A stretch of DNA of 30,134 nucleotides from Eledone cirrhosa (taxonomy: Eukaryota), in assembly GCA_964016885.1 (NCBI GenBank), contig CAXHJY010001039.1, forward strand, positions 1-30,134, written 5' to 3'. Of this stretch, positions 27,269 to 28,893 are shown piece by piece. Numbering within the stretch: the first letter of the stretch is position 1; each line of letters starts with the position of its first letter. The notes beneath the pieces were generated by a model, which worked only from the letters and a program-made list of their open reading frames with translations, was not told the origin of the DNA and did no database searches. A program made the translations under genes and the position numbers.

Positions 27269-27323
<55 letters not shown>

Positions 27324-27615
27324 AAAGTAAGTCCATAGAATCAGTTGATAAAATATATACACTATTTCTTTTCCCAATCAGCATAATCAACCACATAAAA
27401 AAATCAATTAAACGAGGCTATAAGTTTAAAATGTACCTATGAAAAAACAATAGATAAATAAAGGATAGCTATTTTATCCGCGATCCACAGCCACAGAAGA
27501 TTTACCTAGTATTTCTGATAGCCTGTAGAAATTGACTAGACATATAGTTAACCATACACAATTAGGTACAAAATCAAAGTTAGAAGAAAAAATGTACATA
27601 AACATACCAAAATCA

Positions 27616-27700
27616 TGTTTATACCCCCAAGGGTTTCATTCGCTTTTTGGAAATATCCGATCATGGATAAATCAACGAGTTTCAAAATCATCAGGAAACA
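27616..27700 (-). ncRNA. Type I hammerhead ribozyme motif (copy in the inverted unit)
   Basis: UGUUUC-CUGAUGA-...-CGAAU-GAAA-CCCUUGGGGG-UA-UAAACA. Core intact, first pair of stem I mismatched. Confidence 0.7.
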
Positions 27701-28114
27701 AACTCAATTGGACAAAGATTTTTCTTAAATGATCCCCACCAGAAACGAATTCAAAATGGCTAAGAATTGTCACATGGCCAGTGGTCAAGTCAGAAAGCTT
27801 GTGATTGGTGCCTGACGGCGAGTAGGCTGGAATTTCTACGGGCTATTAGAAATACTAGGTAAATCTTCTGTGGCTGTGGATCGCGGATAAAATAGCTATC
27901 ATTTATTTATCTATTCTTTCTTCATAGGTACATTTTAAACTTATAGCCTCGTTTAATTGATTTTTTATGTGGTTGATTATGCTGATTGGAAGAAGAAATA
28001 CTGTATATATTTTATCAAATGATTCTATGAACTTACTTTCTTATATATTGCTCTGATTGTTGATTATTTAATTAATTAATTCGTCAAAGAGCCACACCGT
28101 AAATGGTTGCCAAA

Positions 28115-28154
<40 letters not shown>

Positions 28155-28307
28155 TCTGTCTAGTTTATGTATTTGTAAAACTCTATATTGTATATACTCC
28201 CGTAAGGTTGAGTAAAACTTTAGGCAGTATTCGACTGCGCTTTCTAGCAACCAGCCTACTCGCCGTCAGGCACCAATCACATGCTTTCTGACTTGACCAA
28301 TTGAGTT

Positions 28308-28391
28308 TGTTTCCTGATGATTTCGAAACTCGTTGAATTAACCATGATCGGATATTTCCAAAAACGAATGAAATCCCCGGGGGTAGAAACA
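28308..28391 (+). ncRNA. Type I hammerhead ribozyme motif
   Basis: UGUUUC-CUGAUGA-U UUCG...CGAA U-GAAA-UCCCCGGGGG-UA-GAAACA. Perfect 6-bp stem I, palindromic stem III, GUA cleavage triplet. Confidence 0.85.
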
Positions 28392-28753
28392 TGATTTTGG
28401 TATGTTTATGTACAATTTTTCTTCTAAATTTGATTTTGTACCTAATTGTGTACGGTTAACTATATGTCTAGTCAATTTCTACGGGCTATTAGAAATACTG
28501 GATAAATCTTCTGTGATCGTGGATAAAATAGCTATTATTTATTTATCTATTGTTTCTTCATAGGTACATTTTAAAAACTTATAGCCTCGTTTAATTGATT
28601 TTTTATGTGGTTGATTATGCTGATTGGGAGAAGAAATACTGTATATATTTTATCAAATGATTCTATGGACTTACTTTCTTATATATTGCTCTGATCGTTG
28701 ATTATTTATCTAATTAATTCTTCATAGAGCCACACCGTGAATTGTTGCCAAAA

Positions 28754-28808
<55 letters not shown>

Positions 28809-28893
28809 TAGCTCTGTCTAGTTTATGTATATGTAAACCTCCATATTTTATTTATACATATATATATATATGTGATATATATATATATATATT

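What the first reader, a model, noticed from the sequence alone, without database searches (positions are those of the whole stretch)
27321..28850. ~643-bp hammerhead unit arranged as inverted plus tandem copies
Seen: an inverted copy (27321-27830) directly abuts a 5'-truncated forward copy (from 27831) that runs head-to-tail into a further copy (28251-28850). The hammerhead at 28308-28391 has a perfect 6-bp stem I and predicted cleavage after A28385. Stem III differs between copies (UCCCCGGGGG vs CCCUUGGGGG), yet both can pair. The inverted copy has ~70 extra bp lying between TGGACAA/TGGTCAA microhomologies. Inference: a partial tandem plus 5' inversion is Penelope-style integration. One ribozyme per unit would release monomer-length RNA from multimeric arrays.
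Basis: partly seen in the sequence, partly recalled or inferred. Interest (0 to 1): 0.75.

Follow-up and report, generated by a model that had tools for sequence, protein, structure and literature searches.

The report
Retrozyme whose copies record ribozyme cuts
This is one of several hundred copies of a roughly 700-base non-coding repeat that carries a predicted self-cutting RNA and sits in TA microsatellites as two back-to-back arms; many copies stop right at the predicted cut, which suggests the RNA really cuts itself and is likely copied as a linear molecule by a borrowed Penelope-type enzyme.

Summary
Observation confirmed, with corrections. The unit is ~700-720 nt, not 643. The '70 extra bp' are the family norm; the window's last copy has a private 73-nt deletion (57 of 58 junctions full). 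It is a dispersed, protein-less Penelope-type element (non-LTR retrozyme): 456 exact 28-mer hits, several hundred insertions inferred, in (TA)n. In 73 loci, 51 are head-to-head; arms end at two fixed sites (E1, E2), never the same site twice. Two sister families (88%, 71%) keep E1, E2, the hammerhead (compensatory stems) and a ~285-nt strand-specific hairpin. Main result: arm 5' ends pile up 0-18 nt after the predicted cut (15/60 against 77/1448 elsewhere; repeated in a held-out set), and again at a start-site-like spot. This points to real cleavage and linear, partly cut templates rather than only circles; reverse-transcriptase stalling is the rival. This locus has one hammerhead per strand, so it cannot release a monomer. 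No RNA data; the mobilising element was not found. The scan has reported the two-armed pattern before for other families, mostly read as circle copying.

The parts
27260..27321 (.). (TA)n target, left side
27321..27830 (-). Inverted arm A, unit positions u1 to about u510-515; its 3' end is fixed end E1
27321..27331 (-). E1: pyrimidine-rich tract running into TA; commonest arm end (66 of 138 arms)
27334..27621 (-). Predicted rod-like hairpin from the cut to just before E1
   Evidence: z -4.6, 0 of 200 shuffles
27616..27700 (-). Type I hammerhead in arm A (stem I 5/6; predicted cut after 27622)
27712..27784 (-). 73-nt segment, normal for the family, deleted in copy C between short microhomologies; holds the second pile-up of 5' ends (u51-63, 27768-27780) and a conserved AGCCATTTT motif (27753-27763)
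27801..27810 (-). CCAAT-box-like motif upstream of the putative start site (also 28271-28280 on +)
   Evidence: function inferred
27831..28250 (+). 5'-truncated copy B (u298-u717), no hammerhead; internal (AT)17 at 28118-28151
28251..28854 (+). Copy C (u1 to about u663) with private 73-nt and 7-nt deletions; its 3' end is fixed end E2
28308..28391 (+). Type I hammerhead: stem I 28308-13/28386-91, core 28314-20, U.U-closed stem II with long hairpin, palindromic 12-nt stem III 28373-84, predicted cut after A28385
28681..28854 (+). 'Tail' between E1 and E2, about 110 nt plus a variable microsatellite (28756-28809)
28855..28976 (.). (TA)n target, right side

Best explanation
The locus is one insertion of a dispersed, non-coding, hammerhead-bearing repeat of about 700-720 nt, laid into a (TA)n run as two back-to-back arms that end at two fixed sites, and it was likely made by a borrowed Penelope-like reverse transcriptase/endonuclease copying mostly linear, partly self-cleaved transcripts. 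Steps: (1) transcription likely starts inside the unit near u51-63, behind a CCAAT-like box (inferred from piled-up 5' ends); (2) the type I hammerhead likely cuts after u209, slowly and as a dimer through its palindromic stem III (motif shown, cutting inferred); (3) a Penelope-type protein is inferred to cut both strands of (TA)n and to prime one DNA end at E1 and the other at E2, helped by UA or CU microhomology (end pattern shown, enzyme inferred); (4) each cDNA stops at random, at the cut or at the start site, or reads on into an upstream unit, and the two cDNAs are joined head to head (pattern shown, mechanism inferred).
For: Dispersed and non-coding: 456 exact 28-mers, 0 control; no frame over 67 codons in the unit; copies about 3% from consensus. 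Ends: of 138 arms in 73 loci, 66 end at E1, 46 at E2, 7 at the internal microsatellite, 19 elsewhere; 53 head-to-head pairs in 51 loci, 31 of them E1+E2, none E1+E1 or E2+E2; 92 of 112 E1/E2 ends run into TA. Three arms in (CT)n targets end at u651 where the unit reads CTCT; four more such ends. Sister families B (88%) and C (71%) keep E1 and E2. Hammerhead stems I, II, III change in a compensated way in C (read by eye). Stem III duplex -22.1 against hairpin -2.2 kcal/mol; central pair complementary in 59 of 70 copies (CG 39, AT 18) against at most 48 in 2000 shuffles. 5' ends at u209-228: 15 of 60 arms at risk against 77 of 1448 arm-bins (p 1e-6); first 40 loci 10/35, held-out 33 loci 5/25 (p 0.014); two ends fall on the first base after the cut, none at u198-209; simulation expects 2.75, P(such a peak anywhere) 0.008. 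Similar ends in B (0, +1, +8), C (+7, +7, +8) and an autonomous element of this genome (+1, +3). Second pile-up u50-68: 9 against 1.7 expected. Arms of one insertion share rare variants about tenfold more than different insertions (5-6 against 0.47 per kb). PMC11167929: a Penelope protein cuts and extends both strands of AT-rich DNA and starts at two internal RNA sites.
Against: No cleavage or RNA data. The first test for ends at the cut was negative (1 of 105), in a sample picked by queries most of which span the hammerhead. The second pile-up was found after the fact and is not corrected for scanning. Most piled-up ends lie 2-16 nt past the cut, so trimming must be assumed. 50 of 138 arms cross the cut, which circles would also explain. 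Core and stem I are not better conserved among copies than the rest (2.4% against 2.6%, p 0.70). Stem II covariation in 10 copies was not significant (97 of 500 shuffles). The central stem III change may be one subfamily event. The samples are biased and were not tested statistically. No homologous autonomous partner in 50 GIY-YIG loci or the window's Neptune-type family. In PMC11167929 priming occurs without homology and the hammerhead was dispensable in vitro.
Confidence: 0.72

Rival explanations
1. Same element, but the template is a monomeric circle copied round and round; ends near the cut come from the enzyme stalling at the ligation junction or at the stable stem III duplex.
For: 50 of 138 arms cross the cut and 12 exceed 700 bp. 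Consensus folds well as a circle (z -5.6, 40 shuffles). Retrozymes of coral, mussel and axolotl form circles (PMC7229834). A stall at stem III would also leave ends just 3' of u208.
Against: A circle has no start site, yet 9 arms stop at u50-68 after crossing an uncut hammerhead. Two ends fall exactly on u210, and one of them (L260) continues in another part of the unit, as after an end-of-template jump. Arms are short (median about 310 bp in the first 40 loci). Circles may still give part of the long arms.
Confidence: 0.17
2. The unit is only the terminal repeat (pLTR) of an autonomous Penelope-like family whose ORF-bearing copies were not sampled.
For: It shares pLTR anatomy with autonomous elements here: CCAAT-like box, an AGCCA(C/T)TTTT motif, hammerhead, two TA-linked ends. 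Most pLTR-bearing insertions are 5'-truncated (PMC8557442).
Against: Arms that reach upstream continue into another unit, not into an ORF. The 775-aa ORF hits only 3 of 66 family-A loci, 1 of 24 in the family-B set and 0 of 20 family-C loci, with no shared link. The one hit among 50 GIY-YIG loci (L192) is a family-C copy nested in the TA run ending another element.
Confidence: 0.07
3. Local duplication, satellite or assembly artefact of an unplaced 30-kb contig.
For: The window is a whole small contig; no long read spans it (one search had short contigs only).
Against: The same layout with the same end points recurs in 51 of 73 chromosomal loci; the three copies differ by 4-8%.
Confidence: 0.01

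Closest known systems
Animal non-LTR retrozymes (PMC7229834, parts 2-3 of 6 and passages read; bioRxiv 10.64898/2026.07.22.740005, parts 1-3 of 5 read, supplements not seen)
   Same: Non-coding repeat with a type I hammerhead, GC below 50%, highly self-paired predicted RNA, coexists with autonomous PLEs; unit length inside the 51-972 bp range of the preprint; U.U at the base of stem II as in axolotl HHR_Amex2, which cleaves weakly alone and better as a dimer.
   Different: Mostly under two units per arm, laid head to head in (TA)n, not long arrays; 50-nt stem II insert and 12-nt palindromic stem III; footprints of linear templates. The words octopus, cephalopod, inverted and microsatellite do not occur in PMC7229834.
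Penelope-like elements, Neptune/Naiad/Poseidon (PMC8557442, passages; PMC11167929, parts 1-2 of 4; PMC4209133, parts 1-2 of 4)
   Same: Partial tandems, inverted 5'-truncated arm, tail on one end only, microsatellite targets without visible target duplication, hammerhead with palindromic helix III thought to work as a dimer.
   Different: No ORF; tail about 110 nt plus a microsatellite of variable length against 30-40 bp; ends follow microhomology with the target, whereas the anole element starts without homology; genomic ends at the cut, where PMC11167929 found no RNA-seq reads beginning or ending.
Non-autonomous Chlamys elements such as MRC1 (PMC8557442, passage)
   Same: Non-autonomous PLE derivatives with pLTR-like, head-to-tail copies.
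   Different: Those generally resemble their autonomous family at the 3' end; no such partner was found here, and this one has a canonical-order hammerhead.

Membership tests
Animal non-LTR retrozyme | Type I hammerhead in the repeat unit | tested here: met
   not detected by Rfam
Animal non-LTR retrozyme | No protein coding | tested here: met
   longest stop-free frame 67 codons
Animal non-LTR retrozyme | Tandem units with at least two consecutive hammerheads | tested here: inconclusive
   not at this locus; 2 of 73 unbiased loci; L012, L013, L021, L026 in the biased set
Animal non-LTR retrozyme | Highly self-paired RNA on the ribozyme strand | tested here: met
   (prediction and covariation only)
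Animal non-LTR retrozyme | Self-cleavage and circular RNA in vivo | not testable with these tools
   only the indirect genomic footprint
Penelope-like element, autonomous | RT plus GIY-YIG ORF between pLTRs | tested here: not met
PLE-mobilised element | Partial tandem with inverted 5'-truncated arm | tested here: met
   51 of 73 loci
PLE-mobilised element | Tail on one end only (two initiation sites) | tested here: met
   31 of 53 pairs E1+E2, none E1+E1 or E2+E2; tail longer than the published 30-40 bp
PLE-mobilised element | Sequence homology to the pLTR of an autonomous partner | tested here: inconclusive
   none in 50 GIY-YIG loci of 150 listed, nor in the window's Neptune-type family; only short shared motifs
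Plant LTR retrozyme | Type III hammerhead in LTRs, 4-bp target duplication | tested here: not met
   type I order; ends run into TA

The most novel reading that the evidence does not exclude
The genomic copies are a fossil 5'-end map of the RNA: they show that the hammerhead cuts in the germ line, that animal retrozymes of this kind are pasted from linear, partly cut transcripts instead of circles, and that the palindromic stem III joins two RNA molecules so that a dimeric Penelope enzyme copies one from each cut DNA end, at two sites held apart by a microsatellite of free length.
Probability: 0.3. Interest if true: 0.72.

Novelty: new member of a known kind. Interest (0 to 1): 0.5.

Why it matters
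What the hammerhead does for Penelope-like elements, and whether retrozyme copies come from circles, is open: the circle model is proposed in PMC4209133 and PMC7229834, and PMC11167929 found the ribozyme dispensable in vitro and no reads at the cut. Here hundreds of copies give a countable footprint at the predicted cut and at a likely start site. The same count can be run on any retrozyme or PLE family from an assembly alone, and the three sister families give ready-made variants for cleavage and priming assays. The element itself is an ordinary member of a known class.

Tried and rejected
RNA data: no RNA holder listed; three runs of unknown kind, at most one sample, gave only short contigs and no piece spanning the locus; not used as evidence. 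A-to-I editing as the source of A/G variation in the hairpin: A>G is raised at A-U pairs of the hairpin (26.8 against 8.6 per kb outside), but there is no neighbour preference and polarised changes are 8 A>G to 8 G>A; G.U wobble tolerance explains it. First test for ends at the cut was negative in a biased sample and redone with loci picked by an E1 28-mer: the first 100 of 456 matches, all on C1, grouped into 73 places after dropping three of four segmental duplicates; 19 of 138 arms with non-canonical 3' ends were left out of the hazard count. Partner search: Neptune-type family of the window (local scores within shuffle range), 50 GIY-YIG loci, end-motif comparisons p 0.015-0.97 uncorrected: no assignment. 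L192 looked like a partner and proved a nested insertion. Flank comparison was cut and showed only common repeats in the part seen. Alignment A1 had one wrong row; A2 misaligns stem I of family C, so only stem II was counted. Rfam: nothing relevant. Literature searches listed no paper describing this family or 5' ends at the cut; only listings were seen for most hits, subscription papers and supplements were not seen, PMC5850863 is not held, PMC12602865 passages were irrelevant. No look-alike among earlier findings by sequence.

Full report
Observation. The inverted arm A (27321-27830) meets the forward arm at 27831 without a gap. The forward arm is a truncated copy B (27831-28250) and a further copy C (28251-28854). 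Both outer ends run into (TA)n. A type I hammerhead lies at 28308-28391 with a 6/6 stem I and a predicted cut after A28385; a second lies in arm A with a 5/6 stem I. I number the intact unit u1-u717 from 27830; the cut is after u209. Rfam misses the motif and the isolated motif folds no better than shuffles.

Corrections. The unit is 717 nt here, about 683 nt plus a variable microsatellite. The 643-bp spacing exists only because copy C has lost 73 nt; 57 of 58 classifiable junctions in 66 loci have the full form. Copy B carries no hammerhead, so this locus has one ribozyme per strand.

Family. The 3.0-Gb genome (an animal; octopus-like by my inference from size and repeats, not tested) holds many dispersed copies, the best 88-93% like copy C. 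Exact patterns give 205 hammerheads and 456 E1 segments, 0 in controls. As 48 of 80 sampled segments match the 28-mer exactly, I infer about 760 segments and several hundred insertions. Copies are about 3% from their consensus. No frame exceeds 67 codons. Two sister families exist: B, 88% alike, 684 nt, and C, 71% alike, with copies 96-99% alike to the query copy.

Insertion pattern. In 73 loci chosen only by the exact 28-mer, 138 arms end at E1 (u503-520; 66), E2 (u640-668; 46), the internal microsatellite (7) or elsewhere (19). 51 loci have arms joined 5' to 5'. Of 53 such pairs 31 are E1+E2 and none is E1+E1 or E2+E2. 92 of 112 E1/E2 ends run into TA. The window is a typical case. This is the partial-tandem, inverted-arm, one-sided-tail layout of Penelope-like elements (PMC8557442, passages), and it fits the two internal start sites and two-strand cutting shown for the anole element (PMC11167929). 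Differences: the tail is about 110 nt plus a microsatellite that varies from roughly 14 to 180 nt in family C, and ends follow the target: in (CT)n they fall at u651, where the unit reads CTCT (3 arms; 3 more at u651 and 1 at u493). Arms of one insertion share rare variants about ten times more often than different insertions, so both come from one source lineage.

Ribozyme. Family C changes stems I, II and III and keeps them paired; its stem III is an 8-nt palindrome (read by eye). In family A stem III is the most variable 10-nt window (0.19 against a median of 0.027), yet 39 of 70 copies are fully self-complementary against a shuffle maximum of 34, and the two central bases, which cannot pair within a hairpin, switch together between CG and AT (possibly one subfamily event). 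The duplex is far more stable than the hairpin, as expected for dimeric hammerheads (PMC4209133). Stem III differs even within insertions (22 of 148 against 500 of 12,739 sites) and C>T on its left arm exceeds G>A on its right (28/218 against 9/219); the cause is unexplained. The U.U at the base of stem II also occurs in two unrelated hammerheads of this window and in an active axolotl motif (PMC7229834). Against: core and stem I are no better conserved among copies than the rest, and a formal count on stem II was not significant.

Hairpin. From the cut to just before E1 the RNA is predicted to form a ~285-nt rod, on the ribozyme strand only (z -8.9, -5.8, -2.5 for A, B, C; -1.7, +1.3, -1.0 for the other strand; 40 shuffles each; window copy A itself -4.6). 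Of 19 A/B transitions in paired positions 17 keep the pair (null 0.59, p 0.005; outside the rod 4 of 8). Family C keeps 76 of 92 pairs, 6 by double changes, against 37-45 for slid partners, though its own best fold shares only 38 of 104. A role in presenting E1 to the enzyme is an inference.

5' ends. A first look found 1 of 105 ends at the cut, but most of those loci came from queries that span the hammerhead. In the 73 loci, 15 of 60 arms reaching u209-228 stop there, against 77 of 1448 arm-bins elsewhere; the first 40 loci gave 10/35 and the 33 fetched afterwards 5/25. Two ends start on the first base after the cut, none lies at u198-209. A constant-hazard simulation expects 2.75. Families B and C and an autonomous element show single ends at 0 to +8 (untested). 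A second cluster at u50-68 (9 against 1.7, after the fact) lies behind a CCAAT-like box and just before an AGCCATTTT motif conserved in A, B and C and resembling a motif in two autonomous elements; its likeness to a YY1 site is recalled. I read it as the start site; copy C has lost it. 50 of 138 arms cross the cut, so cutting is partial or circles also serve.

Mechanism and rivals. Most likely (0.72): linear transcripts, capped or cut, are copied from both ends of a nicked (TA)n run by a Penelope-type protein, starting at E1 and E2. Rival (0.17): circles, with stalling at the junction or at stem III. Rival (0.07): terminal repeat of an unsampled autonomous family. The partner is unidentified: no homology in the window's Neptune-type family or in 50 of 150 listed GIY-YIG loci, and the single hit was a nested copy.

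Standing. It works like a PLE-mobilised non-LTR retrozyme and meets the features I could test, except that two-ribozyme tandems are rare. Seven literature searches listed no description of this family or of 5' ends at the cut; supplements and subscription papers were not seen and may bear on that. Earlier notes of this scan describe the two-armed pattern in other families; they are unchecked leads, and the pattern here was established before that look-up. Verdict: new member of a known kind, interest 0.5, carried by the 5'-end footprint.

Noticed in passing
window 28977-29531 (-): A second, unrelated hammerhead repeat directly beside the finding: hammerhead at 29278-29197 with a 10-nt palindromic stem III, unit about 525 nt, young (best copies 97-99%), tandem arrays of six or more units elsewhere.
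   Followed up: partly
window 24456-24996 (-) and 24975-25830 (+): 5'-inverted fragment of an autonomous Neptune-type Penelope-like element with GIY-YIG and a short hammerhead near 25640; the family is very young, with many uninterrupted 775-aa frames at 97-98% identity and an upstream 476-aa frame.
   Followed up: partly
L094 (autonomous family): Two inverted arms meet at the first base after the predicted hammerhead cut, a fold-back junction.
   Followed up: partly
window 14515-18039 (+): Uninterrupted 1174-aa frame with RVT_1 and zf-RVT; C-terminal motifs look like a restriction-like-endonuclease non-LTR retrotransposon (by eye, recalled).
   Followed up: no
window 22078-22593 (+) and about 23800-24200: Decayed reverse-transcriptase fragments of another non-LTR element.
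   Followed up: no
window 8588-9720 and 11542-12201: 24-bp minisatellite (47 copies, 94% matches) and a degenerate TGGC/TGGA array.
   Followed up: no
L143:2969-3282; L164-L183: Sister family C, younger than family A, with a (CA)n(TA)n microsatellite of very variable length inside its tail and a canonical G-C-closed stem II.
   Followed up: partly
L009, L019, L063, L065, L105, L108, L112, L116, L122, L141: At least eight further hammerhead-like families in the flanks, many with palindromic stem III and long stem II inserts.
   Followed up: no
L192, L194, L199, L200, L210, L225; L205, L224, L226, L227, L229: Other autonomous Penelope-like families with two TA-linked ends and a GGAGCCACTTTT motif (seen in L225 and its family) but no canonical hammerhead found downstream of GIY-YIG.
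   Followed up: partly
L237, L289, L290: Arms that stop just after the cut carry a short recopied piece of the nearby sequence at the junction, like end-of-template slippage.
   Followed up: no
L076, L077, L078, L090 (C2, 44-kb spacing); C1 399.29-399.38 Mb: Copies multiplied passively inside segmental tandem duplications.
   Followed up: no
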